DNA from: Oscillospiraceae bacterium
Lineage (GTDB): Bacteria; Bacillota; Clostridia; Oscillospirales; Oscillospiraceae
Assembly (NCBI GenBank): GCA_024697625.1
Contig: JAILFJ010000181.1
Coordinates: forward strand, 22,500 to 86,499
Length of the DNA: 64,000 bases
Direction of reading: 5' to 3'
Translations under genes and position numbers: made by a program
The notes under the pieces: generated by a model
Databases searched by the model: none
What the model was told of the DNA's origin: nothing
Seen by the model: only the letters and a program-made list of their open reading frames with translations
In this document: positions 16,366 to 31,264 of the stretch, one piece after another
How positions within the stretch are numbered: the stretch's first letter is position 1
How the letters are laid out: each line of letters starts with the position of its first letter

Positions 16366-16395
16366 AGTTTAGCATATCCGCAGAAAGCATTGCAA
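16366..16395 (-). promoter_or_regulatory. Candidate promoter of S8 paralog 3
   Basis: Minus strand: TTGCAA (16395-16390), 18 nt, TAAACT (16371-16366) preceded by TGc (extended -10-like). Confidence 0.4.
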
Positions 16396-16477
16396 TAAAA
16401 ATGCAGTCCGTCTCACCATGCTATACCGAGAAACTGCGGTATTCCCTGTGCTGCCGATGCCGATCGCCTGTAGGGTC

Positions 16478-16870
16478 TCAGGGCTCGGCGGTATTTGCTC
16501 CGTTCCAGTTCTGTGAGAAGACCGGGTCGTCAAGGGTGATCACATGGTTGATCTCCAGACTCGGCCAGCCCTTCTCTTCTCCGCGTCGGATCACCTCATA
16601 CGGATCCTCTTCGGTGTGAAATGCCGCCACGTGCTCTGAGCACTCCACCAGCTCGATCCCGTACAGAGAGGCGATCTCTTCCGCCTCCTCACGGGACTCC
16701 ACCGTGCAGATCAGCTCCTCACCTTCCGCGATCTGCCCTCTGAGGAAGTTGGAGGGAGGTGTACTGGCCCCGCCGTGCGGTGTTGCCGTCTCCCCACGTG
16801 TTCCGCCGCAGCCGGTCAGTACCGCCGCCGCGGCCAGAATCAGGGCGCCTATTGTCTTTGCTGTCCGCAT
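16478..16870 (-). CDS. Small lipoprotein resembling the prodomain segment of the adjacent S8 peptidases
   Basis: 130 aa. AAAGGAG lies 7 nt before ATG 16870. The signal peptide has lipobox LTGC (MRTAKTIGALILAAAAVLTGCGG). The mature part EGEELICTVESREEAEEIASLYGIELVECSEHVAAFHTEEDPYEVIRRGEEKGWPSLEINHVITLDDP aligns by eye with EGEVLFSAESEEYARMVAEAYNAELAEFSGYIGKLLLTDATVAEAVECAADMEMPLPAVEPNWIVSVDP of paralog 1. Confidence 0.8.
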   Translation of the reverse strand: MRTAKTIGALILAAAAVLTGCGGTRGETATPHGGASTPPSNFLRGQIAEGEELICTVESREEAEEIASLYGIELVECSEHVAAFHTEEDPYEVIRRGEEKGWPSLEINHVITLDDPVFSQNWNGANTAEP

Positions 16871-16940
16871 GTGACTGCTCCTTTCAAAAAACTGTTCTTC
16901 TGCTTCTTCCCTGCCGCTGCCATGTGCGGAGTTTTCCGTG

Positions 16941-19900
16941 TTACTTCAGGCTGATCTTCAGGCTCAGGGTGGCGTTCGGCACAGTGGTCCGATTGCCGCT
17001 GAGAAAAACCTTCAGCTGTACGTTTGCGCTCTTTAGCTTTGCAAAGCCCTGCGGGTTTTTCTGGATCTGCTCCTTTGCATAGCCGATGGCGTACTCGCCG
17101 CCGCCGAGCGGTGTCAGGCGGAAGAAGCCGCTTCTGTCCACAAGCTGTACGTCCGCCCCTCCGATGCCGGGGAGGCTCGGGTCGCTCAGGCTCAGAATCA
17201 CGCTCTTCCGGTCATATACGTCGTTCTTCGAGAGGCTGATCTCCTTCGTGCTCTGGCTGATCTGCGCCGATCCCATCTTCACGCCGATGGCGCCGTAGCT
17301 CTCCTTCGCGGCTCCGGTTATGCTCGCCGGGATTGCGACATAGGTTCTCGTTCTCGGGTTCAGGCCGGCATCCGGTCCCTTCACCTTCAGGGTATAACTG
17401 CCGCTCCCGCTGTCAAACTCCACCGTGAAGCGGTCGGTGATGTCGCGGTACGCGCTGTCATAGACATGCAGGTCCCCCGCCCCCAGGGGGCGCTGGTACC
17501 AGTTCTTTACGGTCGGTGTCACCGTGACTGAGGTCTCCGGGCGAAGGATATCGATGCTGCCGGACGTCCTATAGTTCACCGTCACCGCCGGGGCGCTCTT
17601 CGATGCTTTGATGCTGAGCTTCACCGGACGCGACTCCTCCGGGAAGCCTGAGCCCACCGCGATCCCGAACGCTGCCGAGAAGCTGTGTTTTTGATCCAGC
17701 TCCTGCTTCAGCGCCGCCCTGTCCGCCGCAGTCAGGGTGAAGACCGTGCCGTTCTGATCAACGCTGAAAAGACTGTCCCTCTCCGCGATGGACATGGCCT
17801 CTGTCACTCTTCCCGCCGTACGATACAGAACAAGTTCCAGCTCGTCGCCGGTCGCGTTGAAGTTCTTCACCTGTGCCGTCAGGGTGATGGGGCTTCCCGG
17901 CACTGCCGTGTCAATGGCGCCGACCGCCCGGGCGGTGACCGTGATCTTCTGGCTGTCCGCCAGGACCTTCACGGTCAGAGGGACACTGATCTTCTTGCTG
18001 CCGAGGCTCAGGACCGCGTTGGCTTTCAGGTTCTTCCCCTTCAGGCTGTCCTCGTCGATCCCGGGCTTCAGACTGACGTTCAGGGTCCCGTCCGCCTTCA
18101 TGTCCAGGCTGAGCCAGCGGTCCGAACTGTCCACGGCCTCCGCCTTGAAGGTATAGGTCCCTCCTGCAAAATCGGCAGGCGTCACAGTCAGGCGGCTCAC
18201 GGCGACGTCGTCGGTGCCGGGCTTCAGCGTCACGGTCGGGGCGCTGAGTTTCAGCGTCGGTTTCTTCTCTGTGCAGGTGACTCTGAGTTTCAGCTGCCAG
18301 GTACCGGCCCAGTTCTCCAGCCTGCACATCGCCGTCAGTGTTCCTCTCCCTGCCCCGTTCTGGGTCAGGGTCATGGTTTCCGGATCAAGGCGGACACAGG
18401 CAGGCTGCGTATATCTTACAATCTCCTGCACGGTCCCGCCGGTCATCTCGAGAGGCGCGCTGTCTCCCGGGATGAAGCTGTTGAGCTTTACGGCAGCCGC
18501 TCTCAGCGACGGGGTGGTTTTCTTTACCGCAACGGTCAGAGGCAGATCTTCAAACACCCTGCCGTTGGTCAGCGTGACGGTGATCAGCGCCTTATAACTG
18601 CTCTTTACCGCCTTCACCGCGGCTTCGCTCAGGTTTTTCGGTACAATCTCGGCATAGCGGTCGTCTATGCGCCGGAGCTCGAAGACCCCCGTGATATCGT
18701 TTTTATCCGCTGCTCTCCAGGTCACGTCCCGGATCACTTCTGCCGGGACTTCCGCCTCATTGGAACTCTGTTCGCCCTCCGGGGTCCCGATCTCCGCGGC
18801 AGTCACCCGGTTCTGCTCAAAATCGAGAATGATACCGACCCGGGTATAGTCCGTGCGGTACATCTCCACCGTGACCCTGTCCTCCGAGAGGGCGGCTGTG
18901 ACCTCCTGAAGCTCCTCTCCGTCGGGGATCACATCCACCCGGCAGCGGGCGCGGTAGTCGGTCCCGTCCCGCGTATACGTCGCCACAGCATAGGCTGTCC
19001 CTGCGCGAAGGGCGCTGACAGTGCCTTCCTCCACACGGATCACCGCATCCCCGGTCCCGTTTCCGGTCTCAGCTCCGTCTGCATCCTCCACGGTCCAGAC
19101 CAGGCGCCTCATCGCCGTTTCAGACAGGTTCGCCGTCAGGCGCTCGGACGCCCTGCCCTGTTCCAGGAGGAGATAGCTGCAGTTCAGCGTCAGGCGGAAA
19201 TCCTCCGACCAGGCCCTGAGCTCTTCGATCTCCTCTGCGGAGACAAAGCGCAATGGGCTCCGCTCTGAAAGCTCGCTGTCGAGGACAGTGTTCAGGTCCG
19301 CCGTGCGGAGGGAGAGCTCCCAGGCATACCAGCCCTCGCCGCTCTGCTCCATGAGCAGGCGGAGCCAGTCGCAGAGTTGTCTCTCCGTCTCGTCGGCCGT
19401 GCCGGCCGTGATGATCTCGGTCCGGGTCAGCGCGCCGCCTTCCGTATCGGCGCGATAGAGCAGCGCCCGCATGCCGCCGATGAGACTCTGGTCCCCGTCA
19501 AAATGCCAGACCGGCTCCGCTCCGCTGAAGTCCAGCCCCGTCGGTGTGGCCAGCCTGACGCGGGTCCCGGCGTAGGTCCAGACACTTGATTCCGCCGCCG
19601 GGCTGTCCTGGCAGGTTTCGCTGTCGGAGAGCGCCGTCACCCGGAAGAGGTATGCTCCCGCTTCCAGCTCCGCTGCATGTCCGGCAAAGTACCTGCTTGC
19701 GAACCTTGTGCCCTCCGTTTCGGTGCCGTCCGTCACCACGGTGTCGGTGGCCGCAGGCACCTCCGAGCCGTCCCGATACCAGTCGATCCGGTATCGGCTT
19801 CCGGTGCGCGCACCGGCCCGGAAGCTCACCGTACCGGAAGCGGCGTTCCCGTCCGCGTCCGTTCCCCAGCGCAGGTCAAAAGGCACTGAGAGCTGTTGCG

Positions 19901-21455
19901 GCTCCTCCGGTTCGATGGTGGTGTCCTCGAGATACGTGGCCTCCGACAGCGTCAGAAGTTCAGCATCAAACATTGCCAGCGCGTCATCGTCATAGGCATA
20001 GCTCACCGCTGTCTTGCCGATCAGGAAGGTATAGCCCTCCGCAGGGCTGCCCTCCGCACTTCCGATCAGGAACAGTCCGTTCTTACCCCCCAGCGCCGTG
20101 TCACTGTTGGTCACGTCGACCAGGTAGTTCTTCCCGTTCTCCATGCTGACGATGTTCCACATGTGGAAGCCCACACTTTTGTCGACGGTCATCGTCCCGG
20201 TCACCGTCCAGGCTCCGATCGGCGCGCTGAAGCTGGTCAGATCACAGAGGTAGACAAAGGCCTTCGCATAACCCTCGCAGACCACCCTTGTGGCCGCGTT
20301 CCCGTCAAAGACCCAGATGAGCTGCCAGGGGTTTCCGTAGGGGGTGGCGCTGTGCGTCGCCGCATAGTTGTTGTAATCCGTCATCTCACAGATCGTATCC
20401 TTGTAGCCCAGCAGCTTTTCGTAGTCGCTGCAGCCCCGATACTTCTCTACCACTGCGGCGGCATTCTTCAGGGCGGTGCTCACTGCGGCTCCCGTGGAGG
20501 TATCCACCGTATATTCGCCGGCGGAATACTCCTGCGCCACCGGAAACTTGAACCGGTATCCGGGCCCGATGACCCTGATCTTCGAAGGCAGACGCGAAGT
20601 CTTCTCCGCCCAGGCGATCTGGGTGGACACCGTCTTGTCGTGCCAGTACAGCTCCGACGGCAGATCCGTCAGCAGCGCCTGCATGAGGTCGGCACTGTTG
20701 CAGCGGAACAGCTCCCGCACCATCTCAAGAGCTTCCTCTGAATTCTCAGCGCCCAGCTCTGCGACGGTCCATTCCGTCTTAAGCCCGAGCTCCTCATAGG
20801 GGATCACAAAGGTGGTCGAGGTCTGCTCGCCGGCTGCCACAGCCCGGATCCGTGGAACCAGCGCATCATAGAGCTTTCTGTTCAGACCCGTCAGCGTCTC
20901 GCCCCGCAGCTCCTTCCAGTTCTGCGCCTCAACCGCTCCCGGCCGCAGCGAATCCAGCTGTTCCTGTGCGTAGGCGTTCAGCAGCACCTCCCTGTCTCTC
21001 TCTGTAACGGCTTCCGCCGAGAGGTACTCCTCCGCCTCGACGGCCTCGGTGATCTCTTCCTCCGGTGTGTCTTCCGTTGTTTCCGCCGCTGTGGTTTCGT
21101 CATCTGCAGCTTCGTCCTCTGCAGCCTCCGGCGCCTCGGGTTCTTCCGCTTCGGGAGCTTCCCCGGTTTCTCCGGACGGTGCGGGGCCGACTTCATCCCG
21201 TGCTTCCTCGGGGAGACTTTCACTCTCTTCCGTGACGGCTTCTTCCTCCGCCGCAGCGTCGGCGGCTGCGGCTTCCGTCGGGCTGCCCGTTTCCGCGGTG
21301 AAGTCTCCGTCCGCCGCAGCCGCGGCGGCAGTCTCTTCCGGGAGGAGGCCGGCGGATTCCGTACCGTCCTCGGCAAAAGCCCATGCCGGGGACAGCGTCA
21401 GGCACATCGCCAGACACAGCAGCACCGCTGTCAGCCTTTTTCTTCTCATCGTCAT
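16941..21455 (-). CDS. Giant secreted protein with transglutaminase-like (Cys-His-Asp) cysteine-peptidase-like core, FN3/Ig-like array (TG-1)
   Basis: 1504 aa. GGGAGGA lies 7 nt before ATG 21455. Signal peptide MTMRRKRLTAVLLCLAMCLTLSPAWAFA, then an acidic A/E-rich spacer. Core motif: YGNPWQLIWVFDGNAATRVVCEGYAKAFVYLC...GFHMWNIVSMENGKNYLVDVTNSD. A long series of beta-sandwich-like repeats ends ...NATLSLKISLK. Confidence 0.9.
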   Translation of the reverse strand: MTMRRKRLTAVLLCLAMCLTLSPAWAFAEDGTESAGLLPEETAAAAAADGDFTAETGSPTEAAAADAAAEEEAVTEESESLPEEARDEVGPAPSGETGEAPEAEEPEAPEAAEDEAADDETTAAETTEDTPEEEITEAVEAEEYLSAEAVTERDREVLLNAYAQEQLDSLRPGAVEAQNWKELRGETLTGLNRKLYDALVPRIRAVAAGEQTSTTFVIPYEELGLKTEWTVAELGAENSEEALEMVRELFRCNSADLMQALLTDLPSELYWHDKTVSTQIAWAEKTSRLPSKIRVIGPGYRFKFPVAQEYSAGEYTVDTSTGAAVSTALKNAAAVVEKYRGCSDYEKLLGYKDTICEMTDYNNYAATHSATPYGNPWQLIWVFDGNAATRVVCEGYAKAFVYLCDLTSFSAPIGAWTVTGTMTVDKSVGFHMWNIVSMENGKNYLVDVTNSDTALGGKNGLFLIGSAEGSPAEGYTFLIGKTAVSYAYDDDALAMFDAELLTLSEATYLEDTTIEPEEPQQLSVPFDLRWGTDADGNAASGTVSFRAGARTGSRYRIDWYRDGSEVPAATDTVVTDGTETEGTRFASRYFAGHAAELEAGAYLFRVTALSDSETCQDSPAAESSVWTYAGTRVRLATPTGLDFSGAEPVWHFDGDQSLIGGMRALLYRADTEGGALTRTEIITAGTADETERQLCDWLRLLMEQSGEGWYAWELSLRTADLNTVLDSELSERSPLRFVSAEEIEELRAWSEDFRLTLNCSYLLLEQGRASERLTANLSETAMRRLVWTVEDADGAETGNGTGDAVIRVEEGTVSALRAGTAYAVATYTRDGTDYRARCRVDVIPDGEELQEVTAALSEDRVTVEMYRTDYTRVGIILDFEQNRVTAAEIGTPEGEQSSNEAEVPAEVIRDVTWRAADKNDITGVFELRRIDDRYAEIVPKNLSEAAVKAVKSSYKALITVTLTNGRVFEDLPLTVAVKKTTPSLRAAAVKLNSFIPGDSAPLEMTGGTVQEIVRYTQPACVRLDPETMTLTQNGAGRGTLTAMCRLENWAGTWQLKLRVTCTEKKPTLKLSAPTVTLKPGTDDVAVSRLTVTPADFAGGTYTFKAEAVDSSDRWLSLDMKADGTLNVSLKPGIDEDSLKGKNLKANAVLSLGSKKISVPLTVKVLADSQKITVTARAVGAIDTAVPGSPITLTAQVKNFNATGDELELVLYRTAGRVTEAMSIAERDSLFSVDQNGTVFTLTAADRAALKQELDQKHSFSAAFGIAVGSGFPEESRPVKLSIKASKSAPAVTVNYRTSGSIDILRPETSVTVTPTVKNWYQRPLGAGDLHVYDSAYRDITDRFTVEFDSGSGSYTLKVKGPDAGLNPRTRTYVAIPASITGAAKESYGAIGVKMGSAQISQSTKEISLSKNDVYDRKSVILSLSDPSLPGIGGADVQLVDRSGFFRLTPLGGGEYAIGYAKEQIQKNPQGFAKLKSANVQLKVFLSGNRTTVPNATLSLKISLK
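20100..20345 (-). other. Transglutaminase-like core of TG-1 (candidate catalytic Cys, His, Asp)
   Basis: Cys codon at 20277-20279 (CEGY), His in FHMWNIV (~20155-20172), Asp in LVDVTNSD (~20100-20125). The spacing follows the Transglut_core pattern C...H.W...D.T. Confidence 0.7.
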
Positions 21456-21571
21456 ATCTGCGTCCTCCCGTTTTTCTTCTTGTTTCTCAACTCTTCCGGT
21501 GACAGCCGGCCGCTGCCCGTCCTTACGGGCGAAGCGGCGGCCCTGTCTGCACTGTTGTATCTGTCAGCTGC

Positions 21572-24500
21572 TTACTTCAGTGTGATCTTCACGCTCAGTC
21601 TCGCGTTCGGTGTGTCGGTGATATTACCGCCGAGGAACACCTGGAGCTGTACGTTCGCGCTCTTCATCTTCGTGACGTCAATTGTCCTGTCCTTCACAAA
21701 GCCGATGGCAAACTCGCCGTTTCCAAGGTGCACCGGCTGCGCAAAGCATCCGCTTTTATCCACCAGAACCACCCGCGCCTCGCCGATGTCGTACAGCGTC
21801 GGGTCATTCACGCTCAGAACCACGCTCTGCCGGTCATAGAGGTCATTCTTCGACAGGGTGATCGCCTTCGTGCTCTGGGCGATCTTCGCGGTGCCCATCT
21901 TTACAGTGAGGGCCTTGTAGACAGTGCTCTGGGCTCCCGTCACATCCTTCGGGACCGCTGCATAGTACTTCAGCTTCGGGTTCAGGGCTTCCTTCGGCGT
22001 CACCCGGTAGGCTGCGCCGTCAAAGCCCACTGTGAATTTATCCGTGATGTCTTTGTATGCGCTGTCATAGATGTGGAGATCGCCCTGCTCCAGGTCACGC
22101 TCGTACCAGTTCTTCACCGTCGGCGTAACCGTCACCGAGGTCCCCTGCCGCAGCACGTCAATGGTGCCGACGGTCTTATAGCTTACGTTGATGGTCACCT
22201 TTGCGGAGTTCTTCACCGTGATCTTTACGGGTTTGATCTCCGCAGCCGCTGTTTCGATCACCGCCGTGTACGCATCGCCCTTGTCAAAGACGTCCTTCAG
22301 GCTCTGCTTCAGCGCCGGGTCCCGCTTCTCCCGGAGGGTGATGACATCCCGGGTAATTTCAATATTGAAGAGATCTGTGACATCCAGGTCCTTCACACCC
22401 TGCTTCCTGTTGTTGCACAGGATATGAACATCGTAGTCCGTCACGGCGCCGGCATTGCAGTTTTTGCCGGTCAGGGTGATTGTCACCGGGCTGTTTGTCA
22501 TCTTCAGGTCGATCGCGCCTGCGGCTTTTGCCGTGATGCCGGTTTTTGCCGCCGCTGCCTGTACCTTGACCCTCAGCGTCGCGACCGGCTGTCCGTCCGC
22601 TTTCACGGTCACGGTGGCATTGCCCGCGGTGGCTTTTCCCTTCTCCACCGTGATCACGCCGGTCTCATCGTCGTAATCTGCAATCAGCCCGTTGTTTCCC
22701 ACAGCCTCGATACGGTGGGTCATGCCGGCCAGCGGCGTTACCGTCACGGCCGAGAAAGCCTTATCATTCCCGTTGCCGGAGTACAGATTCACAGAGGTAG
22801 GCTTCAGCGTCACTTTCGGCGCGTTCCAGGTGCTGCTGACCGTGAGGTTCAGCTTTGCCGTCACCGCCCAGTTCTCCAGGTCGCAGATCAGGCTGAACTT
22901 CGCGGAGCCGTTTTTGGTGTTTGCCGGGTTCAGCTTCACCGTCATCGGCAGCTCTTTGCTCAGCTCCGCCACCGTGTTTTTATAATTCCCGTTCTCCGGC
23001 CGGAATCCGGTCACATTGGCCCCGGTGACCGCGACCGGCACAACCTCGTCCGGGGTGAAGCGGTTCAGCTTCACCGCAGGAGCTGACAGCTTCGGAAGCG
23101 TCTTCTTCACCGTGACCGTGAGCGGCAGAGGATCCAGCTCGCGTCCGTTCTCCGTTCCGTCGTCCACCGTCACCAGGATGCTGGCCTTGTAACTGCCCTT
23201 TGTCGCCTTCACGGCGAGCGGGCTCAGATCCTTCGGTACAATCTGGACATAGCGGTCGTCCACCTGTTCCAGCTCGAAGAAGTCCGTGATCTTATTCTTG
23301 TCTGCGGCCTCCCAGGTCACCTTTTTCAGCACCGCCGAGACCGCCGGATCTGCAGGGCTATTGGTGTCTGCATCGGCGTCGGTCCCTGCCTCCCCGATGC
23401 TGGCAGCGCCGATCCGGTTCTGCTCGATGGCAAGGACGATGCCCACACGGGTGTAGTCCGTGCGGTAGAGCTCGACCGTGACCTTGTCCTCCGTGAGCGA
23501 CGCCTTCACCTCGCTGAGCTCTGTGATACTCTCCTGTATGTCCACGCGGCAGCGGGCCGTATAGACTGCATACCCCAGGTCCAGCGTCGCAACCGCATAG
23601 TCCGTCCCGACGCTCTTTGCCATCACGGCGCCGGTATTCCGATCCACCGCGATGATGTCTTCCCTGCCGCTCTCGGTGGTCCAGGTCAGGTACTTTTTCG
23701 TATAGTCGTTCAGACCCTCTGTTACATTCAGGCTGCTGTCTGTTCCGCCTTTCTGGATCAGCAGATACTCCTTGTTCAGCTTCAGGCCGCTGCTGTCCCC
23801 GGCACCAAACTGTGCCTTAAAGGCCTGCGTAAGGGCTTCGTTCCCTTCTGCGATCCGGATCCTGTTCCACTCGGCGGGTGTTCCGGCATAATTCACGGTC
23901 TTCAGTTCTTCACAGCCTGTGAAGCAGGCCTCCTCCACTGCGGTCAGGCTCTTCGGGACCGTGACCTCTGCGAGGCCTGTGCAGCCCATGAATCCGCCCT
24001 CCGGCAGTGCTGCCAGGCCCTCCGGCAGAACCATGCTCTCCAGCCCGCTGCCGTAGAAGACATATCTGCGCAGTTCCGTCAGTGTGGACGGAAGGTCGAT
24101 GCCGCGCAGACTGACGCAGTCCGTGAAGGCGTCCGCGTGGATGCTGACGAGCCCCTCCGGCAGGGAGACCTCTGTGAGGTTCGGCAGGTACGAGAAGGCA
24201 TAGCCGCCGATCACGGTGATCCCCGCTTCCACGACGACTTTGGTGATCTCGGCGCTCCGGGCTGCCCAGGGGAGCATCATGCCGTTCTCATAGTAATAAT
24301 CCCACATCGCCCCGGTGCCCGACAGGGTCAGAACCCCGTTGCTGACGGCCCAGCGAATATCGTTGCCGACATAACCCTCCGGGCGCTCGTACTGAACCCG
24401 GAAGCTGACCGCTCCTTCATTGCCCAGCTCGTCGGTGACCGTGCAGGTATAGACGCGGAAGGTATCCACCGGCTCCGTCACAAGTGAAGGACTGTTGTTC

Positions 24501-27500
24501 TCATAGTTTATGATCTGTGTCGATCCATCCTCTGTCCAGTCCGTCGCGCTGCTCCAGGCATAGCGGATGGCGCCGCCTCCCTGCGCGGGGACAGTCTCCA
24601 CCTCCAGCGTGACCGTCGTGCCGCAGGGGACAGCAATGGCAGTCTCTTTCCCGTCCTTAGGCTGAACTGCGAGGCCGTATTCACAGTAGAGCTTTGCTCC
24701 TGTCAGTGACTCATTTCCCTCTGCGATCCGGTCTTCCTTCCAGTCTGAAGAGAATCCGTTCAGCTCGATCCTCTGCAGGTTATCGCACTGGTCAAAGGCC
24801 CACTTGCCGACCCTGAGCCCCGCGGCAGAAGCCGAAACCGCCAGCGTCTCCAGCGCATTCATGCCGGCAAAGGCGTTCTGTCCGACTGCCGTCACCCCGG
24901 GATCCAGGGTTACGGTTTTGACCGTATCCTCATAATCTCCCCAGGGCGCGTCCGTCGTCCAGTTGACGCTTCCCCCGTCCGCCGGATAACCGACCTCGGT
25001 ATAGTCCCAGATGTCGCCTTCTCCGCTGATGGTCAGGGTGTCGCCGCTGACCGCCCACGTCAGTCTGTCGCCGCAGGCGTCCAGATCGAAGACCGCAGCA
25101 CTCAGTTCATAGCTGCCCTCTCCGGTCGCCTGGCCGGTGCGCTCTATCTCAAGCGGGAGGGTTTCTCCTGCTTTCATGGAATAGCGGTAAATCATTGTCT
25201 CGCCGTCCCATAGCACCTGGGAATCCGGCACGCGGCTGTTCGTCGCGCTCAGATGAATGCCCGGTCTTGCAGCGCTGTCGCTGAGCTTGCGGAGAGTTAT
25301 CACATAGAGGCCTTCCTCCTCTGCGACAAGTCGGAAACTGCTCTTCGGCTGTGCGGAGGACAGATCCAGCGTGAGCGTCTCTCCCGCCTTCAGAGCGGGA
25401 TTCCAGGTATAGATGTAGACACATTCCTTGTTGTCCGAATCCGTATGGCTTCTCTCGTAGTTTCTGAGATCGATCCCCGTGAAGTAGGTATCCGGATCCG
25501 CATCCGCAACATGGCCTTTCCCGATATGGTTTACATACAGCCGCCCGGTACCGGCGTAGCTGCCTGTCACCGTCACGGTTGCCATGGCGCCGTTGCCGTT
25601 GTGCAGGGCGAGCGTGCTGTTGTTGACCAGGGTACCGGCCACGGTGATGTCCTCCTGCAGGAGCAGACTACCGTTGAGCGTCAGGGTCTTTCCCGCCGGT
25701 ACCGTGACGCTGTTGTTGGGTGCCGGGAACCAGACCATCAGGTTCTCCGGGATGACGACGTCCTCCGTGAACTCGAAGGGCTCGTTCAGGCCAAAGCGGA
25801 TGCTGGTGATCGACGTATAGTTCTGTGCGCAGAATTTCTGAAGCTGCTTCAGGTTCCTGAATTCATTCGGTGCGTGGTATTCCGCGATCTGCTCTGCGGT
25901 GATCTGCGTCTCGGCAGACCAGTCGGACCACAGAGATTTGTCCACCGTGGCGGTGTCGTCACTCAGCAGCTTCACACGCCACTGATAGTATCCCGGACCC
26001 TGCTGCCGGACTCTCGCCATGAAGGACACCGCCGGGCTCTCATCCCCTGGCCCCATGGTACGGCGGATCAGCGTGGGATACCGCATGCCCTCGCCGGTCT
26101 GAGGATCTGAGAGACTCGCCCGGTACCGGTATTCCATCATGAAGCCCGTGTAATGATCCAGGTCTGCGGGCATGGTCCAGGTTGCCATACCGTCGGTGTC
26201 AATCCCGATATTCGTCACTGTTGCCATGCGGACCGCGGCCTTCTCATAGTGCCACGTCTCCGACTTCACCGGGTCGCTGTCGGCATATTTGTCCGGGTCC
26301 TTGGAGACGGCGGTCACCGTAAAGTAATAGTCGCCGCTCTCAAACTCATCGCTGGTCACAAAGACGTGGTTCCCGTCCCGGCCAGCACCGGGGACAGCGG
26401 TAAAATCGGTCCGTACCATCGTATCTGTACCATTTACGGTTCGATAGATCCTGTATTCATAGAAGCGCGTCGGATTCTCAGCCGCCTGAGCAAAGCTCAT
26501 GAACCCAATGACGTCGTGCCCTTCCTCGAACCTGTGCCAGGCAAGGTCCGTCGGCGGACTCAGCTTCAGCAGGTCGCCCAGGCAGCGGAGCTTCGCGCTC
26601 CGGAGGGGCTCATTACCGTCCGCGATGCTGACCGAAGACCAGTCGGTCTGCCGGCCGGCATACTTTACAAGCTCCAACGTGCCGCAGCCGCTGAAGCAGG
26701 CCAGCGGTACCGTATTCAGTGTCTTTGGCAGCGTGATCTCTTTCAGACCGGCACATCCCATAAAGGCCGCCGCACCGATTTCAGTCAAGCCTTCCGGCAG
26801 TACAACAGTCTCCAGTCCGCTGCCGTAAAAGGCGTAACTGCCGATCTTCCGCAGAGACGCCGGGAACTCGATGCTCTTCAGGCTCACGCTGTCAGAGAAG
26901 GCGTCTCTTCCGATCCGGGTAAGCGTTGTGGGCAGGGTCACCCTGGTCAGGTTCGGCATCTGGGTAAAGGCGTCGCCGCCGACGGCTGTGATCCCCTCTC
27001 CGACAATCACCTCGGTGATGCTGCCGTTCAGCCCCGTCCAGGGCGTCATAAAGCCGTCCTCGTAATAGTAGTCCCACATCTCCCCTGTGCCGGAGAGCGT
27101 CAGGACGCTTCCGCTGACACTCCAGCGGATGCTGTCTCCGGCAAAGCCGTCCTGCCGCCCATAGTCCAGCGTGAACGTCACCTGTGCCGAGTTGCCGTTC
27201 TGGTCCGACACGACACAGACGTACTGCAGCTGATCGGTGACAGGATCTGTCGTCAGACGGTTGGTGTTGCCGCTGGTGCTTCCATGTCCGACGAGGGTCT
27301 GAGCGACCCTGCCGTCCTCTGTCCTGCGGTTGACCGCATACCAGTCATAAGTCAGCGTATCGCCTTCCTTTGCCGGCGTCGCCCGGACGGTCAGGGTTGC
27401 GGTTGTCCCGCGTGCCACCGTCAGCCCGGTCTCGCCGACAGGCTCGAGCTTCAGCAACGGACGGTTGTCTATGTCACCATCAGTGCAGTGGATCAGAGCG

Positions 27501-30091
27501 GTTTTCAGGCAGTCATTCAGGTCGCCGATGCGGATCGCGCTCCACTGCGCCTTGGTGCCGGCATAGTTGACTGTTTTCAGGCTGTTGGCCGTCTCAAATG
27601 CCCCGTACTGTATGTCCGTCAGACTGACCGGGATGTCCAGCTCCTCCACGGCCGTGCCATTGAAGGCGGCCTGTCCGATGCTCTCCAGCTGATTTGGAAG
27701 CCTGACCTCCGTCAGAGCCCCGCAGCCTGAGAAGGTTGCGTATTCCAGCATCGCAATGCTGTCCGGAAGGCGGATCGAGGTCAGGCCGGTCGCCCGGAAG
27801 GCGTTGAGACCGAGGCTCTTCACGCTGTCGGGCAGGCTGACCTCCTTCAGGGCGCTCATCCCCATGAAGGCTGCCTCGCCGAGAGACGTGATGCCGTCGT
27901 CCACCGTCAGCTTTGACGCGGTCCCGGCATACTGTGTCCAAGGCGCATCCGTGCCCGTCTCCGTCCAGCTGCGGGGCCACATCTCACCCGTACCGGAAAT
28001 CGTCAGCTCGGCAGTCGCCGTGTCATAACTCCAGACAGCGGTCTCGCCGCAGGCGTCGGTCTCAAAGCTCTTCACGCTGATCCGGTATTTCCCGGTTCCG
28101 CTGCTCATGCGCTCGAGCGTGACCCGGTATTCCTGTCCCGCCGTCAGTGTAGACCGGACGCTGACTGTGCCGGTGGAGCTTGCCCACGTCGCCACCGTGC
28201 TGCCGTCCGCCGTCGTCAGCGTCACTCTGACCGGCGGGTATACCACATAGGGTGAGGCAGCTGTCACATTGCTGCCGCTGTTACTGATATCCTCAGCGGT
28301 GATTTCATATATCCTCGTCGCCAGGGGTTTAAAGATCAGTGTCCTGCTCGCCGAGGCCGTATTCTCACTGCCCAGCGTGATCTCGACGCCCTTTCCGTCC
28401 TCCAGCTCCGGGTCTGCCGGGGTCGGATCTGCATACGGCGTATAGTCCTTATTCGACAGCGTCAGAATGTCGCTGCCGTAGAGGTTTTTCGCCTCATCAT
28501 CATAGACGTAGGTCACCTGACTGGCAAAGCTGCCCGAGCCGCAGTTATACGTGTATCCGTTTGCGACTCCGCCGCCGGCACATCCCTTCATGAACAGCCA
28601 GTCCGGTGCGCCGATCGATCCCACGTCACAGTTGGTCACGTCGACAAGATAGTTTTTCCCATCCTCCATGCTGACGATGTTCCACATGTGATTTCCGGCC
28701 CCGGTACCGCCGCTCATCACGCCGCTGACCGAATAGACGCCGACCGCTCCCTGGAAACTCGTCAGCTCGCAGAGATACTGGAAGGCTTTGGAATAGCCTT
28801 CGCACACGACGTCCGTATCGATATCGCCGTCAAACACCCAGATCAGCTGCCACGGGTTTCCGTATGGCACAGTCTGATCCTGGGCTGCCTTGTCGTTGTA
28901 TGTGACATGGTCGCAGATCCAGGTTTTATAGGCGCTCAGCTTGTCAAAGTCACTCTTGGGTGCCGCACTGGTCACAACAGCGTTGGCGTTCTGTACCGCT
29001 GTCTTTACCGTTGTGCCGTATTTCGGGTCGACACCGGTCGGCTTTGTGACGGTATGTTCATCTCCGTATTCGTCTTCATACCGGTATGTGTATACGCTGC
29101 TTCCGTCCCAGTATTCCTGCACAACCGACATCCAGACGCAGAAGCCGTCTCCCTCTACCTTGATTGTATTTCCGGAGCCGCTCATGCTGTCATAGGGCTG
29201 ATACATGGTCCCGTCGGTCTTGTCATACCAGTACAGTGAGTAGCAGCAGTCCGCCAGCAGCGCGCCCAGCACTGCTCTGAAGCTGAAATCAAAGAAGCTG
29301 TCCACCATAGCAAAGCCGTCGTCAAAATTGGTTACACCCAGCTCATCAAAGGTATATGTTTTCTTCAGTCCCAGCTCCTCAAAGGGGATCACAAAGGCCG
29401 TGCTGGCAAGATCGCCGGATGCAACCTGTTGGATTCTCTTCCACAGCGCATCATAGATCTTTTTATCCAGTCCGGTCAGCAGTTCGCCGCGGTCGACCCT
29501 GTAGTTCTGCGGTGTGACCGCACCGGGGCGCAGCGAATCCAGCGCTGCCTGGGCATAGGCATCCAGCAGTGCTGCGTTATCCGTGCCGTCGTCGACCGTA
29601 ACCGTACAGATCCTTCCCGACATTTCGGCATAACCTTCATCCTCGTCTCCGAGGTCTGCCGTCTCTGTCGGCGCCTCATCTTCGGCTTCTTCAGGATCAT
29701 CGGCTTTCGGACCATCGTCCTTCGGCTCTTCCGAATCTGCAGGAGCTTCCGTCGGCTCTTCGGGCACGGCTTCCGAAGGTGCATCCTCCGGGGGCGCAGC
29801 TTCCGGGGTCTCTTCCTCTTCAACAGGCTCTTCCCCCGCAGCCTCCGGCGCCGCTTCCGCCCCGGGAAGCATCTCTTCTTCCCCGGAGAGCGCGGGATCC
29901 TCTGCCTCTCCCTGAGTCAGGAGATCTTCTTCCGCCTGGCTTCCCTCTTCCACAGAATAACCATCCGCTTCGCCGGCCTCTTCTGCCAGACCGGTACCGT
30001 CCCCACCCTCGGCAAAGGCCCAGGTCGGGAGCATCGAGGCGCACATTGCGATGCACAGCAGCACCGCCAGCAGCTTTCTGTAGTGTTTCAT
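21572..30091 (-). CDS. Giant secreted protein: transglutaminase-like core + PPC-like + four BspA-type LRR blocks + Ig/FN3-like array (TG-2)
   Basis: The ORF is open to 30178. I prefer ATG 30091 (MKHYRKLLAVLLCIAMCASMLPTWAFA), which has AAGGAGGA upstream. Acidic spacer follows. Core motif: YGNPWQLIWVFDGDIDTDVVCEGYSKAFQYLC...GNHMWNIVSMEDGKNYLVDVTNCD. LRR_5-like units (e.g. ITAVGGDAFTQMPNLTRVTLPTTLTRIGRDAFSDSVSLKSIEFPASLRKIGSYAFYGSGLETVVLPEGLTEIG) are each preceded by ...LTLSGTGEMWDYY. The C-terminal ~900 aa is collinear with TG-1 and ends ...NARLSVKITLK. Confidence 0.9.
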   Translation of the reverse strand: MKHYRKLLAVLLCIAMCASMLPTWAFAEGGDGTGLAEEAGEADGYSVEEGSQAEEDLLTQGEAEDPALSGEEEMLPGAEAAPEAAGEEPVEEEETPEAAPPEDAPSEAVPEEPTEAPADSEEPKDDGPKADDPEEAEDEAPTETADLGDEDEGYAEMSGRICTVTVDDGTDNAALLDAYAQAALDSLRPGAVTPQNYRVDRGELLTGLDKKIYDALWKRIQQVASGDLASTAFVIPFEELGLKKTYTFDELGVTNFDDGFAMVDSFFDFSFRAVLGALLADCCYSLYWYDKTDGTMYQPYDSMSGSGNTIKVEGDGFCVWMSVVQEYWDGSSVYTYRYEDEYGDEHTVTKPTGVDPKYGTTVKTAVQNANAVVTSAAPKSDFDKLSAYKTWICDHVTYNDKAAQDQTVPYGNPWQLIWVFDGDIDTDVVCEGYSKAFQYLCELTSFQGAVGVYSVSGVMSGGTGAGNHMWNIVSMEDGKNYLVDVTNCDVGSIGAPDWLFMKGCAGGGVANGYTYNCGSGSFASQVTYVYDDEAKNLYGSDILTLSNKDYTPYADPTPADPELEDGKGVEITLGSENTASASRTLIFKPLATRIYEITAEDISNSGSNVTAASPYVVYPPVRVTLTTADGSTVATWASSTGTVSVRSTLTAGQEYRVTLERMSSGTGKYRISVKSFETDACGETAVWSYDTATAELTISGTGEMWPRSWTETGTDAPWTQYAGTASKLTVDDGITSLGEAAFMGMSALKEVSLPDSVKSLGLNAFRATGLTSIRLPDSIAMLEYATFSGCGALTEVRLPNQLESIGQAAFNGTAVEELDIPVSLTDIQYGAFETANSLKTVNYAGTKAQWSAIRIGDLNDCLKTALIHCTDGDIDNRPLLKLEPVGETGLTVARGTTATLTVRATPAKEGDTLTYDWYAVNRRTEDGRVAQTLVGHGSTSGNTNRLTTDPVTDQLQYVCVVSDQNGNSAQVTFTLDYGRQDGFAGDSIRWSVSGSVLTLSGTGEMWDYYYEDGFMTPWTGLNGSITEVIVGEGITAVGGDAFTQMPNLTRVTLPTTLTRIGRDAFSDSVSLKSIEFPASLRKIGSYAFYGSGLETVVLPEGLTEIGAAAFMGCAGLKEITLPKTLNTVPLACFSGCGTLELVKYAGRQTDWSSVSIADGNEPLRSAKLRCLGDLLKLSPPTDLAWHRFEEGHDVIGFMSFAQAAENPTRFYEYRIYRTVNGTDTMVRTDFTAVPGAGRDGNHVFVTSDEFESGDYYFTVTAVSKDPDKYADSDPVKSETWHYEKAAVRMATVTNIGIDTDGMATWTMPADLDHYTGFMMEYRYRASLSDPQTGEGMRYPTLIRRTMGPGDESPAVSFMARVRQQGPGYYQWRVKLLSDDTATVDKSLWSDWSAETQITAEQIAEYHAPNEFRNLKQLQKFCAQNYTSITSIRFGLNEPFEFTEDVVIPENLMVWFPAPNNSVTVPAGKTLTLNGSLLLQEDITVAGTLVNNSTLALHNGNGAMATVTVTGSYAGTGRLYVNHIGKGHVADADPDTYFTGIDLRNYERSHTDSDNKECVYIYTWNPALKAGETLTLDLSSAQPKSSFRLVAEEEGLYVITLRKLSDSAARPGIHLSATNSRVPDSQVLWDGETMIYRYSMKAGETLPLEIERTGQATGEGSYELSAAVFDLDACGDRLTWAVSGDTLTISGEGDIWDYTEVGYPADGGSVNWTTDAPWGDYEDTVKTVTLDPGVTAVGQNAFAGMNALETLAVSASAAGLRVGKWAFDQCDNLQRIELNGFSSDWKEDRIAEGNESLTGAKLYCEYGLAVQPKDGKETAIAVPCGTTVTLEVETVPAQGGGAIRYAWSSATDWTEDGSTQIINYENNSPSLVTEPVDTFRVYTCTVTDELGNEGAVSFRVQYERPEGYVGNDIRWAVSNGVLTLSGTGAMWDYYYENGMMLPWAARSAEITKVVVEAGITVIGGYAFSYLPNLTEVSLPEGLVSIHADAFTDCVSLRGIDLPSTLTELRRYVFYGSGLESMVLPEGLAALPEGGFMGCTGLAEVTVPKSLTAVEEACFTGCEELKTVNYAGTPAEWNRIRIAEGNEALTQAFKAQFGAGDSSGLKLNKEYLLIQKGGTDSSLNVTEGLNDYTKKYLTWTTESGREDIIAVDRNTGAVMAKSVGTDYAVATLDLGYAVYTARCRVDIQESITELSEVKASLTEDKVTVELYRTDYTRVGIVLAIEQNRIGAASIGEAGTDADADTNSPADPAVSAVLKKVTWEAADKNKITDFFELEQVDDRYVQIVPKDLSPLAVKATKGSYKASILVTVDDGTENGRELDPLPLTVTVKKTLPKLSAPAVKLNRFTPDEVVPVAVTGANVTGFRPENGNYKNTVAELSKELPMTVKLNPANTKNGSAKFSLICDLENWAVTAKLNLTVSSTWNAPKVTLKPTSVNLYSGNGNDKAFSAVTVTPLAGMTHRIEAVGNNGLIADYDDETGVITVEKGKATAGNATVTVKADGQPVATLRVKVQAAAAKTGITAKAAGAIDLKMTNSPVTITLTGKNCNAGAVTDYDVHILCNNRKQGVKDLDVTDLFNIEITRDVITLREKRDPALKQSLKDVFDKGDAYTAVIETAAAEIKPVKITVKNSAKVTINVSYKTVGTIDVLRQGTSVTVTPTVKNWYERDLEQGDLHIYDSAYKDITDKFTVGFDGAAYRVTPKEALNPKLKYYAAVPKDVTGAQSTVYKALTVKMGTAKIAQSTKAITLSKNDLYDRQSVVLSVNDPTLYDIGEARVVLVDKSGCFAQPVHLGNGEFAIGFVKDRTIDVTKMKSANVQLQVFLGGNITDTPNARLSVKITLK
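28620..28870 (-). other. Transglutaminase-like core of TG-2 (candidate catalytic Cys, His, Asp)
   Basis: Cys codon at 28802-28804 (VVCEGYSKAF), His codon at 28688-28690 (NHMWNIV), Asp in LVDVTNCD (~28622-28648). Confidence 0.7.
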
Positions 30092-30143
30092 CCCGTGCAC
30101 ATCCTCCTTGATCAGAATGTATAATACCGCATAGATATCACCA

Positions 30144-30172
30144 TTATAATACGTCGGCGGTCTTCTTACAAG
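30144..30172 (-). promoter_or_regulatory. Candidate promoter of TG-2
   Basis: Minus strand: TTGTAA (30172-30167), 17 nt, TATAAT (30149-30144), about 50 nt upstream of ATG 30091. Confidence 0.45.
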
Positions 30173-30207
30173 CTGCATTTCTTAAGAATTTCCTAACAAT
30201 TCGGCAT

Positions 30208-30252
30208 AAAAACACCGCGAAAAGCGATTTTTGATCACTTTCCGCGGTGTTT
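30208..30252 (-). terminator. Intrinsic terminator after the suf genes
   Basis: aaacaccgcg (30210-30219) pairs with cgcggtgttt (30243-30252). In minus orientation the stem is followed by TTTTTAT. It lies 70 nt downstream of the sufB/D-like stop. Confidence 0.6.
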
Positions 30253-30323
30253 CAAAGGCGCTTGACATCATATCTTGAGGTCTGTGCCGCAGCCTCTTTC
30301 CATATCTTGTGTCAGAGGTTTTT

Positions 30324-31250
30324 TCAGCGCAGGAAGCCGTTGATGATCTGCTCCTCCGCCTCCTGCTCCGTGAGGCCCAGGGTCATGAGCTTCACCAGCT
30401 GCTCCCCGGCGATCTTGCCGATGGCTGCCTCGTGCACCAGCATGGCGTCCACATTGTTCGCTTCCAGCGAAGGGATCGCCAGGATCCGGCCCCTGTCCAT
30501 GATGATCGAGTCGCACTCGGTGTGTCCGCTGCAAGGGGCGTTGCCGGTAACACGGGCGTTGAAGGTCTGGCTGGAATCGTCCCGCGCCACTGACCGGGAC
30601 ACCACGTCCGCCGTGGCTCCCGCGCCGTTCAGGTTCACCTGATACCCGCTCACGGCATTCTGGCTGCCGTGGGTCATGAGGCGCTCCTTTACCACCAGCT
30701 TTGCTCCGGCCTTCAGCTCCGCCACGGTCTGACGGTCGGTGGAGTCCACGCCCTTGATCTGCTCCATCTCCATCTCCATGGAGCTGTTTTCGTCCATATA
30801 GACCTCGGTCACCGGGTTCAGAATCCGCTGTCCCTTCCCGTCCCCGGACCCGTAATGCTTCTCGACGTACTTCACCTTCGCGTTTCTGCCGATATGGAAG
30901 CGGTGGATGCCGTCGTGCTCCGAGTCCTGCGTACCGCAGTTGTCGATGCCGCAGCCGGCCACGATAACTACGTCGCTGTCCTCGCCGACATAAAAGTCGT
31001 TGTATACCGTCTCTTTGATGCCGCTCTCGGACAGCACCACGGGGATGTGTACGCTCTCCTTCTTCGTGCCCGGCCTGATCCGGATGTCGATGCCGCTTCC
31101 GTCCGGTTTCGAGATGATGTCGATGTTTGCCGTGGTGTTCCGCCCGGCCAGCCGGCTGTTGGCGCGGAAGTTATAAGCCCCCTCCGGCACGCTGTGGAGA
31201 TCGGCGATCTCCTCAATCAGCCGTTTCTGAATCGCGTCCAGCTTTACCAT
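30324..31250 (-). CDS. SufB/SufD-family Fe-S cluster assembly protein
   Basis: ATG 31250 is preceded by GAGGGAGGGGAGAG. The C-terminal signature ...MLVHEAAIGKIAGEQLVKLMTLGLTEQEAEEQIINGF is typical of SufB/SufD. The gene sits immediately downstream of sufC. Confidence 0.8.
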   Translation of the reverse strand: MVKLDAIQKRLIEEIADLHSVPEGAYNFRANSRLAGRNTTANIDIISKPDGSGIDIRIRPGTKKESVHIPVVLSESGIKETVYNDFYVGEDSDVVIVAGCGIDNCGTQDSEHDGIHRFHIGRNAKVKYVEKHYGSGDGKGQRILNPVTEVYMDENSSMEMEMEQIKGVDSTDRQTVAELKAGAKLVVKERLMTHGSQNAVSGYQVNLNGAGATADVVSRSVARDDSSQTFNARVTGNAPCSGHTECDSIIMDRGRILAIPSLEANNVDAMLVHEAAIGKIAGEQLVKLMTLGLTEQEAEEQIINGFLR

Positions 31251-31264
31251 GTCTCTCCCCTCCC

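What the first reader, a model, noticed from the sequence alone, without database searches (positions are those of the whole stretch)
16941..30091. Two giant paralogs with an intact transglutaminase-like Cys-His-Asp core on a huge modular scaffold
**Seen in sequence**
- TG-1 (1504 aa) and TG-2 (~2839 aa) share an N-terminal ~450-aa unit: ...LLNAYAQEQLDSLRPGAV / LLDAYAQAALDSLRPGAV ... YGNPWQLIWVFDG...VVCEGY(A/S)KAF.YLC...HMWNIVSME(N/D)GKNYLVDVTN.D.
- They also share a collinear C-terminal ~900-aa repeat array.
- TG-2 carries an extra ~1300 aa of PPC-like, LRR, Ig and beta-helix-like modules between the two.

**Established knowledge**
- The C...H.W...D.T spacing is the papain-like transglutaminase-core triad. 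It is used by transglutaminases and by bacterial transglutaminase-like cysteine proteinases.

**Inference**
- These are surface-exposed cysteine peptidases or protein cross-linking enzymes delivered on adhesin-like stalks.
- Which of the two activities applies cannot be told from sequence.
Basis: partly seen in the sequence, partly recalled or inferred. Interest (0 to 1): 0.7.

Follow-up and report, generated by a model that had tools for sequence, protein, structure and literature searches.

The report
Secreted giant proteins with transglutaminase-like heads
Two neighbouring giant secreted proteins of an uncultured gut or rumen Oscillospiraceae bacterium each carry, at the outer end of a long Ig-like stalk, a divergent transglutaminase-fold domain with an intact Cys-His-Asp active site; this domain defines a large family that no one has characterised or named, but it is not a new kind of enzyme.

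Summary
TG-1 (16941..21455, minus strand, 1504 aa) and TG-2 (21572..30091, minus strand, 2839 aa) are real paralogs. They are 41% identical over the N-terminal unit, 33% over a middle unit and 43% over a 750-aa C-terminal array.

- A profile of the N-terminal unit matches the solved Streptococcus pyogenes TglA (PDB 9crn) at E 5.6e-11, with Cys, His and Asp aligned. The aligned 121-residue TglA segment scores above threshold for Pfam Transglut_core.
- An AlphaFold model (pLDDT 92) finds only transglutaminase-fold proteins. It places the Cys at a helix N-terminus and the His and Asp on or at the end of the following strands.
- The triad is kept in 245-246 of 246 relatives.

The unit defines a family of at least 2,300 clusters at 50% identity. 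Its members are almost always N-terminal, secreted and fused to varied modules (SLH, dockerin, LRR_5, choline-binding). Pfam does not recognise it and NCBI calls TG-1 hypothetical.

The C-terminal part is a rare stalk of tandem Ig-like domains with no known anchor.

Whether the enzyme hydrolyses or cross-links cannot be decided from sequence; I lean towards hydrolysis. This is a new member of a known kind and of moderate interest.

The parts
21572..30091 (-). TG-2 gene (2839 aa from the ATG at 30091; the mechanical ORF extends to 30178)
   Evidence: RBS AAGGAGGA; promoter-like site upstream
30143..30171 (-). Promoter-like site (TTGTAA, 17 nt spacer, TATAAT; 10 of 12 matches) upstream of the TG-2 start
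   Evidence: a consensus match only
30011..30091 (-). TG-2 signal peptide MKHYRKLLAVLLCIAMCASMLPTWAFA
   Evidence: the only hydrophobic segment; cleavage site judged by eye
29591..30010 (-). TG-2 polyacidic low-complexity linker (E+D 36%, K+R 2%)
28406..29590 (-). TG-2 transglutaminase-like head domain
   Evidence: Transglut_core E 0.041; family HMM 445 bits
28802..28804 (-). TG-2 catalytic Cys codon (VVCEGYS)
28688..28690 (-). TG-2 catalytic His codon (NHMWN)
28640..28642 (-). TG-2 catalytic Asp codon (LVDVTN)
26567..28405 (-). TG-2 insert 1: beta-rich module, then BspA-type LRR_5, an Ig-like unit and LRR_5
25856..26566 (-). TG-2 middle unit shared with TG-1 (33% identity)
23786..25855 (-). 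TG-2 insert 2: unassigned segment followed by a duplicate of the insert-1 module set
21575..23785 (-). TG-2 C-terminal stalk of tandem beta-sandwich (Ig-like) domains
21456..21571 (-). TG-2/TG-1 spacer with a GC-rich hairpin (-37.7 kcal/mol, z -2.5, no U tract) and the TG-1 RBS GGGAGGA
16941..21455 (-). TG-1 gene (1504 aa), identical to NCBI MCR5138513.1, a hypothetical protein of an Oscillospiraceae MAG
21372..21455 (-). TG-1 signal peptide MTMRRKRLTAVLLCLAMCLTLSPAWAFA
21006..21371 (-). TG-1 polyacidic linker (E+D 36%, K+R 1%)
19887..21005 (-). TG-1 transglutaminase-like head domain (residues 151-523): N-terminal cap, papain-like core and C-terminal beta subdomain
20277..20279 (-). TG-1 Cys393 codon
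   Evidence: 245 of 246 relatives
20163..20165 (-). TG-1 His431 codon
   Evidence: 246 of 246
20115..20117 (-). TG-1 Asp447 codon
   Evidence: 246 of 246
19194..19886 (-). TG-1 middle unit (residues 521/524-754), no Pfam match
16944..19193 (-). TG-1 C-terminal 750-aa stalk: all-beta, several tandem Ig-like domains, no known anchor

Best explanation
TG-1 and TG-2 are Sec-exported modular proteins. After the signal peptide is cleaved, each has a roughly 120-140-aa polyacidic, probably disordered, linker. Next comes a head domain of about 370 aa, and then a long rod of beta-sandwich domains. In TG-2 the rod also carries two sets of BspA-type LRR_5 modules, which probably bind something.

The head is a divergent transglutaminase-fold (papain-like, Pfam clan Peptidase_CA) cysteine enzyme. 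Cys393 at a helix N-terminus is the nucleophile. His431 on the next strand is the general base. Asp447 orients the His. The numbering is that of TG-1.

The enzyme would attack a peptide or Gln side-chain carbonyl of an extracellular protein and form a thioester acyl-enzyme. My committed guess is that water resolves this intermediate, making the enzyme a peptidase, isopeptidase or deamidase. These would then be stalk-displayed hydrolases acting beside the three giant subtilases encoded next to them.

Shown here: the genes, the paralogy, export signals, the fold, triad position and conservation, and the stalk fold. Inferred: catalysis, the nature of the substrate, hydrolysis rather than transamidation, and retention at the cell surface.
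For: - Fold and triad: PDB 9crn (TglA) matches at E 9e-5 with the single sequence and 5.6e-11 with the family profile, with Cys, His and Asp aligned. The aligned TglA segment is a bona fide Pfam Transglut_core match (41 bits, cut-off 23).
- Structure: AlphaFold2 gives pLDDT 92.2 and pTM 0.87, with the Cys at the start of a helix and the His and Asp on or just after the next strands. Foldseek top hits are TglA, a TGase (4xz7), TgpA, LapG, vasohibins and TG3.
- Weak direct family hits: Transglut_core E 0.041 for TG-2; 9 of 53 relatives match it, best E 2.6e-4; NCBIfam MAG6410 transglutaminase-related lipoprotein E 1e-6.
- Selection on catalysis: Cys in 245 of 246, His in 246 of 246 and Asp in 246 of 246 relatives. 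W377, Q378, D384, E394, K398, W433 and N434 are also nearly invariant.
- Export: one N-terminal hydrophobic segment in each protein. 223 of 244 relatives look signal-bearing and the domain starts at median residue 57.
- Display: relatives fuse the same head to SLH, dockerin, choline-binding, LRR_5, fn3 and Big_2 modules.
- Lean towards hydrolysis: the genes sit in a row with three giant S8 subtilases. LapG and the vasohibins, both among the structural hits, are known proteases (my own knowledge). Rincon et al. counted dockerin-borne transglutaminase-like proteins of Ruminococcus flavefaciens among peptidases (PMC2930009).
Against: - No enzyme assay exists for any member of this family.
- From my own memory, not checked here, two of the nearest structural neighbours have been reported to have transamidase activity in vitro: TgpA, and 4xz7 if that entry is the Streptococcus suis SsTGase. 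Proximity therefore does not favour hydrolysis.
- The adjacency to S8 proteases is not conserved. No S8 gene lies within 10 kb of the family member in nine related loci, and the neighbours vary.
- Neither protein reaches the Pfam Transglut_core cut-off.
- No cell-wall anchor of a known type is present. The proteins could simply be released.
Confidence: 0.5

Rival explanations
1. The heads are true transglutaminases. An amine (a protein Lys or a polyamine) resolves the thioester intermediate, so the proteins cross-link the bacterium's own surface or matrix proteins. Alternatively they couple the cell covalently to dietary or host proteins that the LRR_5 modules have bound.
For: The fold and triad evidence is the same as for the main explanation. 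The nearest structural hits after TglA are '4xz7 Crystal structure of a TGase' and TgpA. S. suis SsTGase is cited as a secreted transglutaminase that helps resist killing by neutrophils (PMC13656463 ref. 145). Binding modules next to the enzyme in TG-2 fit a bind-then-couple logic.
Against: Nothing in the sequence separates transfer from hydrolysis. No candidate substrate or partner gene is conserved next to family members. Reported in vitro transamidase activities of bacterial Transglut_core proteins are, as far as I know, weak.
Confidence: 0.3
2. The head hydrolyses an amide bond that is not in a protein backbone. Candidates are a glycan-asparagine or sugar-amide bond (as with PNGase or WbmE) or a cell-wall peptide or isopeptide bond (as with the pseudomurein endoisopeptidases PeiW and PeiP). 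It would then act on glycoproteins or on neighbouring microbes' walls.
For: PNGase, WbmE and PeiW/PeiP are members of the same superfamily with the same triad (my own knowledge; Makarova et al. 1999 as summarised in PMC10318531). The family is fused to cell-wall-binding modules (SLH, choline-binding) and to cellulosomal dockerins.
Against: None of these enzymes appears among the sequence or structure hits. There is no carbohydrate-binding module in TG-1 or TG-2.
Confidence: 0.12
3. The head is a non-catalytic binding or structural module, a pseudoenzyme. The proteins would be plain adhesins or S-layer-like structural proteins.
For: The stalk resembles adhesin extenders and the Bacillus anthracis Sap S-layer assembly domain. 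Neither protein reaches the Pfam Transglut_core cut-off.
Against: Cys, His and Asp are kept in 245-246 of 246 relatives that are only about 40-50% identical overall. That is hard to explain without catalysis.
Confidence: 0.05

Closest known systems
Streptococcus pyogenes TglA (PDB 9crn, 'Transglutaminase-like domain-containing protein')
   Same: It is the best sequence and structure match: profile E 5.6e-11 and Foldseek E 2.8e-7 over 277 columns. Cys, His and Asp align, with similar spacing (about 38-40 residues and about 15-16 residues).
   Different: Identity is only about 19%. TglA is a 379-aa chain, not the head of a giant stalked protein. Its aligned segment passes Pfam Transglut_core, while TG-1 and TG-2 do not. 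I found no paper on its function.
Dockerin-borne 'transglutaminase-like' proteins of Ruminococcus flavefaciens FD-1 (ORF01263-01266 and others; PMC2930009)
   Same: They are secreted proteins with the layout signal peptide, transglutaminase-like domain, display module, from a rumen fibre-degrading Ruminococcus. They are encoded head-to-tail in tandem next to an LRR protein. Six of 53 sampled relatives of TG-1 also carry dockerins.
   Different: I could not test whether the FD-1 proteins belong to the same family as TG-1 and TG-2. Here the display module is an Ig-like stalk, not a dockerin. Their function is also unknown.
PDB 4xz7 'Crystal structure of a TGase' and Streptococcus suis SsTGase
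   Same: 4xz7 is the second structural hit (Foldseek E 2.3e-3, probability 1.00). SsTGase is a secreted transglutaminase of a Gram-positive bacterium (PMC13656463).
   Different: Identity is 14%. That 4xz7 is SsTGase is from my memory and was not verified, because the paper is not held.
LapG / BTLCP (bacterial transglutaminase-like cysteine proteinase, Pfam PF06035)
   Same: The core fold and Cys-His-Asp triad are the same, and it is an extracytoplasmic enzyme that acts on a giant adhesin (Foldseek probability 0.99, TM 0.45 relative to LapG).
   Different: There is no sequence-profile match. LapG is a small periplasmic protease of Gram-negative bacteria that cleaves an adhesin. Here the enzyme is itself part of the giant protein.
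Pseudomonas aeruginosa TgpA periplasmic domain (PDB 6g49, 6g4h)
   Same: It has a transglutaminase-like core with accessory subdomains and is the third and fourth structural hit.
   Different: It is an inner-membrane protein of a Gram-negative bacterium. Identity is 14-15%.

Membership tests
Transglutaminase-like superfamily (papain-like fold; Pfam clan Peptidase_CA) | Alpha+beta papain-like core with the nucleophilic Cys at the N-terminus of a helix and the His and Asp on the following beta-strands | tested here: met
   In the AlphaFold2 model (pLDDT 92), Cys243 opens helix 243-256, His281 lies in strand 277-287 and Asp297 follows strand 293-296. Foldseek hits are all transglutaminase-fold proteins.
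Transglutaminase-like superfamily (papain-like fold; Pfam clan Peptidase_CA) | Cys, His and Asp in that order, aligned with the catalytic residues of an accepted member | tested here: met
   HMMER alignments to 9crn put Cys on Cys, His on His and Asp on Asp. The aligned 9crn segment is a Transglut_core match. The triad is kept in 245-246 of 246 relatives.
Transglutaminase-like superfamily (papain-like fold; Pfam clan Peptidase_CA) | Active-site geometry (Cys S to His N and His N to Asp O within bonding distance) | not testable with these tools
   Model coordinates are not returned by the tools.
Pfam Transglut_core (PF01841) | Score at or above the curated gathering cut-off (23 bits) | tested here: not met
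   TG-1 has no hit. The TG-2 domain scores 14.6 bits, E 0.041. Nine of 53 relatives match at E <= 1, best 2.6e-4. The unit is a distinct family within the superfamily, not a PF01841 member by Pfam's rule.
BTLCP / LapG (PF06035) | Profile match to PF06035 | tested here: not met
   No PF06035 hit even at E <= 10. Only fold-level similarity is seen.
NCBIfam MAG6410 family transglutaminase-related lipoprotein (NF045980) | Score at or above the cut-off (450 bits) and a lipoprotein signal | tested here: not met
   Scores are 24-27 bits, covering the core only. Neither signal peptide contains a lipobox (by eye).
Transglutaminase (EC 2.3.2.13) or cysteine peptidase, as an activity | Cys-dependent transamidation or hydrolysis | not testable with these tools
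   This needs biochemistry.
BspA-type leucine-rich repeat surface proteins (Pfam LRR_5) | LRR_5 profile match above the cut-off | tested here: met
   TG-2 only: E 1.9e-85, four stretches. TG-1 has none.
Covalently or non-covalently wall-anchored Gram-positive surface proteins | LPXTG sorting signal, SLH, CWB2, choline-binding, LysM or a C-terminal membrane segment | tested here: not met
   No such Pfam domain is present. There is no LPXTG-like motif in the last 80 residues and no hydrophobic segment beyond the signal peptide.

The most novel reading that the evidence does not exclude
The family, at least 2,300 clusters at 50% identity and unnamed in Pfam and NCBI, could be a widespread class of extracellular protein-coupling enzymes of gut and rumen Gram-positive anaerobes. 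In this reading the stalk-mounted transglutaminase head bonds the cell, or its cellulosome or S-layer, covalently to dietary, host or neighbouring-cell proteins that adjacent LRR or other modules have captured. This would be an enzymatic form of covalent adhesion. The near-orphan Ig-like C-terminal array would be a new, anchor-free way of holding such proteins on the cell.
Probability: 0.15. Interest if true: 0.7.

Novelty: new member of a known kind. Interest (0 to 1): 0.4.

Why it matters
If the heads are active, thousands of large secreted proteins of gut and rumen Clostridia now labelled 'hypothetical' would gain a testable chemistry: a thiol acyl-enzyme acting on extracellular proteins. 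That bears on how these bacteria process dietary and host proteins, build or remodel their surfaces, and attach to substrates. It also bears on the debate about microbial transglutaminases in the gut.

In practical terms, the family deserves its own profile. Pfam Transglut_core misses it, so automated annotation does too. TG-1 151-523 gives a confident model and is a sensible construct for biochemistry.

Tried and rejected
- Pfam on the full proteins gave no Transglut_core or BTLCP hit. Only the isolated TG-2 domain gave a sub-threshold hit.
- Exact look-ups of TG-1 and of the thymidine kinase ORF in the contig index found nothing. The source organism was instead identified through the cluster of a 94%-identical representative.
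- Literature searches for 9CRN and TglA found no paper on the S. pyogenes protein. The S. suis TGase paper is not held.
- Mobile-element origin is rejected. There is no plasmid match. Only two small unannotated 'Bacteriophage sp.' contigs from human faeces and two IMG/VR contigs carry the domain.
- A conserved operon with S8 proteases is rejected. No S8 gene lies near the domain in nine related loci, and the neighbours are unrelated housekeeping genes.
- The acidic N-terminal stretch as a transglutaminase-specific propeptide is rejected as the simplest reading. All six giant secreted proteins in the window, whatever their head, have such a stretch.
- 'PPC-like' (TG-2 592-700) and 'beta-helix-like' (TG-2 1442-1600) are not supported by Pfam at E <= 1.
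- A first self-BLAST for internal repeats returned nothing, because the identity hit masks the others. It was redone with masked windows.
- A search for homologs of the C-terminal array found a single protein. I ran no further search on a profile of it.
Full report
**What is there**

The window's minus strand carries a row of very large genes. Three are S8 subtilases (1514..5713, 5913..12023, 12311..16390). Then come TG-1 (16941..21455, 1504 aa) and TG-2 (21572..30178 as a mechanical ORF).

An AAGGAGGA ribosome-binding site lies 11 nt upstream. A promoter-like TTGTAA-17-TATAAT at 30171..30143 sits inside the upstream extension of the ORF. TG-1 has its own GGGAGGA site. It is separated from TG-2 by 116 nt that contain a strong GC-rich hairpin without a U tract.

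TG-1 is residue-for-residue identical to NCBI MCR5138513.1, 'MAG: hypothetical protein K6C12_15700 [Oscillospiraceae bacterium]'. The source is therefore an uncultured Oscillospiraceae bacterium, and the protein is currently unannotated.

**Checking the observation**

BLASTP gives three collinear shared blocks (TG-2 residues in ORF numbering from 30178):
- TG-1 6-520 vs TG-2 34-591: 41% identity.
- TG-1 521-754 vs TG-2 1205-1441: 33% identity.
- TG-1 755-1504 vs TG-2 2132-2868: 43% identity.

The additional 1303 aa of TG-2 form two blocks, 592-1204 and 1442-2131, on either side of the middle unit. The two blocks are partly duplicates of each other, each with the module order beta-rich module, LRR_5, Ig-like unit, LRR_5. 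The LRR_5 assignment is solid (E 1.9e-85). The 'PPC-like' and 'beta-helix-like' labels have no significant Pfam support.

A sister strain's TG-2 ortholog (87% identity) is about 300 aa shorter, with one repeat unit lost or gained. The scaffold is therefore plastic.

**Is the N-terminal unit a transglutaminase-like domain with the triad in place?**

Pfam does not call it at its curated cut-off. TG-1 has no hit and the isolated TG-2 domain gives Transglut_core at E 0.041. NCBIfam gives a weak hit to the 'MAG6410 family transglutaminase-related lipoprotein' (E about 1e-6).

The decisive evidence is indirect but consistent.
- The single domain matches PDB 9crn (Streptococcus pyogenes TglA) at E 9e-5, and a 53-sequence family profile matches it at E 5.6e-11. 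VVCEGYsKAF aligns with VCNGYAQAF, HMWN with HAWN, and YlVDVT with YGVDVT.
- The aligned 121-residue TglA segment scores 41 bits against Pfam Transglut_core, whose cut-off is 23. The family therefore links to the canonical family through an accepted member.
- AlphaFold2 with the family alignment gives a confident model (pLDDT 92.2, pTM 0.87). The Cys opens a helix, the His lies in the next long strand and the Asp follows the strand after that. This is the papain-like arrangement.
- Foldseek against the PDB returns TglA (E 2.8e-7), '4xz7 a TGase', TgpA, LapG, vasohibins and TG3. The top six hits are all transglutaminase-fold proteins; the few unrelated entries further down (for example MyTH4-FERM domains) have low probability.
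- In 246 aligned relatives the Cys is present in 245 and the His and Asp in 246. W377, Q378, D384, E394, G395, K398, W433, N434, N450 and D452 are also nearly invariant.

**The family**

A full HMMER scan of 1.84 billion representatives (50% identity clusters) finds 3594 proteins at E <= 1e-3 and 2304 at E <= 1e-30.
- The domain starts at median residue 57.
- 223 of 244 sampled proteins have a signal-like N-terminus.
- 63 of the 245 sampled domain-bearing proteins exceed 1000 aa, and the longest is 4517 aa.
- The sources that name an organism give Oscillospiraceae, Lachnospiraceae, other Clostridia, Erysipelotrichaceae, Atopobiaceae and Eggerthellaceae, all as 'hypothetical protein'.
- The same head is fused to SLH, dockerin, choline-binding repeats, LRR_5, fn3 and Big_2 modules. 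This is the pattern expected of an extracellular catalytic module displayed in different ways.
- It is essentially absent from plasmids and phages.
- It has no conserved gene neighbour, and in particular no S8 protease in nine related loci.
- Only TG-1 and TG-2 carry it in this window.

**The rest of the proteins**

Each protein has a single hydrophobic segment, the signal peptide. A polyacidic linker follows (E+D 36%, K+R 1-2%). The three subtilases and the LRR_5 giant at 34289..38356 have the same kind of linker, so it is a habit of this organism's giant secreted proteins and not a transglutaminase propeptide.

The 750-aa C-terminal block has no Pfam match. The word-indexed search of 5.8 billion proteins found only one homolog. 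Two more turned up among the family hits.

In the metagenomic scaffold L010 the same block follows a different head, made of PMP-like beta-helix repeats. It therefore behaves as an independent stalk module.

AlphaFold predicts it as all-beta (pLDDT 70), and the strand pattern suggests several tandem beta-sandwich domains. Foldseek finds titin, cadherins, RTX adhesin extenders, PrgB Ig-like domains and the Bacillus anthracis Sap S-layer assembly domain.

There is no LPXTG, SLH, choline-binding, LysM or membrane anchor. How, or whether, the proteins stay on the cell is open.

**Mechanism**

The evidence supports a secreted cysteine enzyme that forms a thioester acyl-enzyme through Cys393, His431 and Asp447. 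Sequence cannot say whether water or an amine resolves the intermediate.

I lean towards hydrolysis (peptidase, isopeptidase or deamidase) for three reasons:
- The genes lie in a block of extracellular proteases.
- Well-studied members of this fold, such as LapG and the vasohibins, are proteases.
- Rumen workers have counted dockerin-borne transglutaminase-like proteins among the peptidases (PMC2930009).

The lean is weak. The protease adjacency is not conserved. Two close structural neighbours, TgpA and the Streptococcus suis SsTGase if 4xz7 is that protein, have reported transamidase activity; this is from my memory, although SsTGase is cited as a secreted transglutaminase in PMC13656463.

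My estimates:
- Transglutaminase fold with a competent triad: about 0.9.
- Hydrolase: about 0.5.
- Cross-linking enzyme: about 0.3.
- Hydrolase of a non-protein amide bond: about 0.12.
- Pseudoenzyme: about 0.05.

**Comparison with what is known, and novelty**

The superfamily has been known since 1999 (summarised in PMC10318531). Secreted transglutaminase-like proteins encoded in tandem were noted in Ruminococcus flavefaciens in 2010, next to an LRR protein and displayed through dockerins. A relative from S. pyogenes has a solved structure.

What is new here is modest:
- A large, sharply conserved and unnamed family within that superfamily, which curated profiles miss.
- A characteristic N-terminal cap on the domain.
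- In this organism, mounting on a rare Ig-like stalk that lacks any recognised anchor.

I file it as a new member of a known kind, with moderate interest.

Noticed in passing
window 1514..16390 (-): Three giant paralogous S8 subtilases (1399, 2036 and 1359 aa) lie directly downstream of TG-1. They share their own long C-terminal array (37-59% identity). With TG-1 and TG-2 they form a 29-kb block of five secreted giants.
   Followed up: partly
window 1514..38356 (-), the six giant ORFs: All six giant secreted proteins (three S8, TG-1, TG-2 and the LRR_5 protein at 34289..38356) have a signal peptide followed by a 110-250-aa polyacidic linker (E+D 31-50%, K+R 0-4%). None has a known anchor. Five of the six end in a similar short beta-strand-like basic tail such as LSLKISLK, LSVKITLK, ITIQVK or LTLSVKK; S8b (5913..12023) does not.
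   Followed up: partly
window 16478..16870 (-): A 130-aa predicted lipoprotein (lipobox LTGC) lies between TG-1 and the third subtilase. It is weakly similar (E 0.004, 30% over 88 aa) to the segment just before that subtilase's catalytic domain, so it may be a free-standing propeptide-like inhibitor. It has no Pfam hit.
   Followed up: partly
L010 1..5419 (ENA metagenome scaffold): The same roughly 750-aa C-terminal Ig-like array (32% identity) follows a different head made of PMP-like beta-helix repeats, across a run of Ns. An ORF that looks like a phage portal protein (by eye) comes next.
   Followed up: partly
window 21456..21571 (-): The TG-2/TG-1 spacer holds a GC-rich hairpin (-37.7 kcal/mol, z -2.5 against shuffles) without a U tract. 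It may be a processing, stabilising or attenuating element.
   Followed up: partly
window 23786..28405 (-), TG-2 inserts: The two inserts of TG-2 are duplicates of one another (30-52% identity). A sister strain's ortholog (87% identity) is about 300 aa shorter, which suggests recent recombination between the repeats.
   Followed up: yes
window 20244..20246 (TG-1 Cys404) and the codon after the TN of the VDVTN motif in TG-1 and TG-2: A second Cys (YLC, 230 of 246 relatives) is conserved, and the family consensus has TNCD after the catalytic Asp. TG-2 has both Cys residues, while TG-1 has Ser at the second position. This may be a disulfide that TG-1 has lost.
   Followed up: no
window 42664..49250 (-): Two adjacent hybrid histidine kinases are present. 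One has dCache, HisKA, HATPase, REC and Hpt domains; the other has HisKA, HATPase, REC and Hpt. They lie downstream of a pyruvate:ferredoxin oxidoreductase gene (38696..42214).
   Followed up: no
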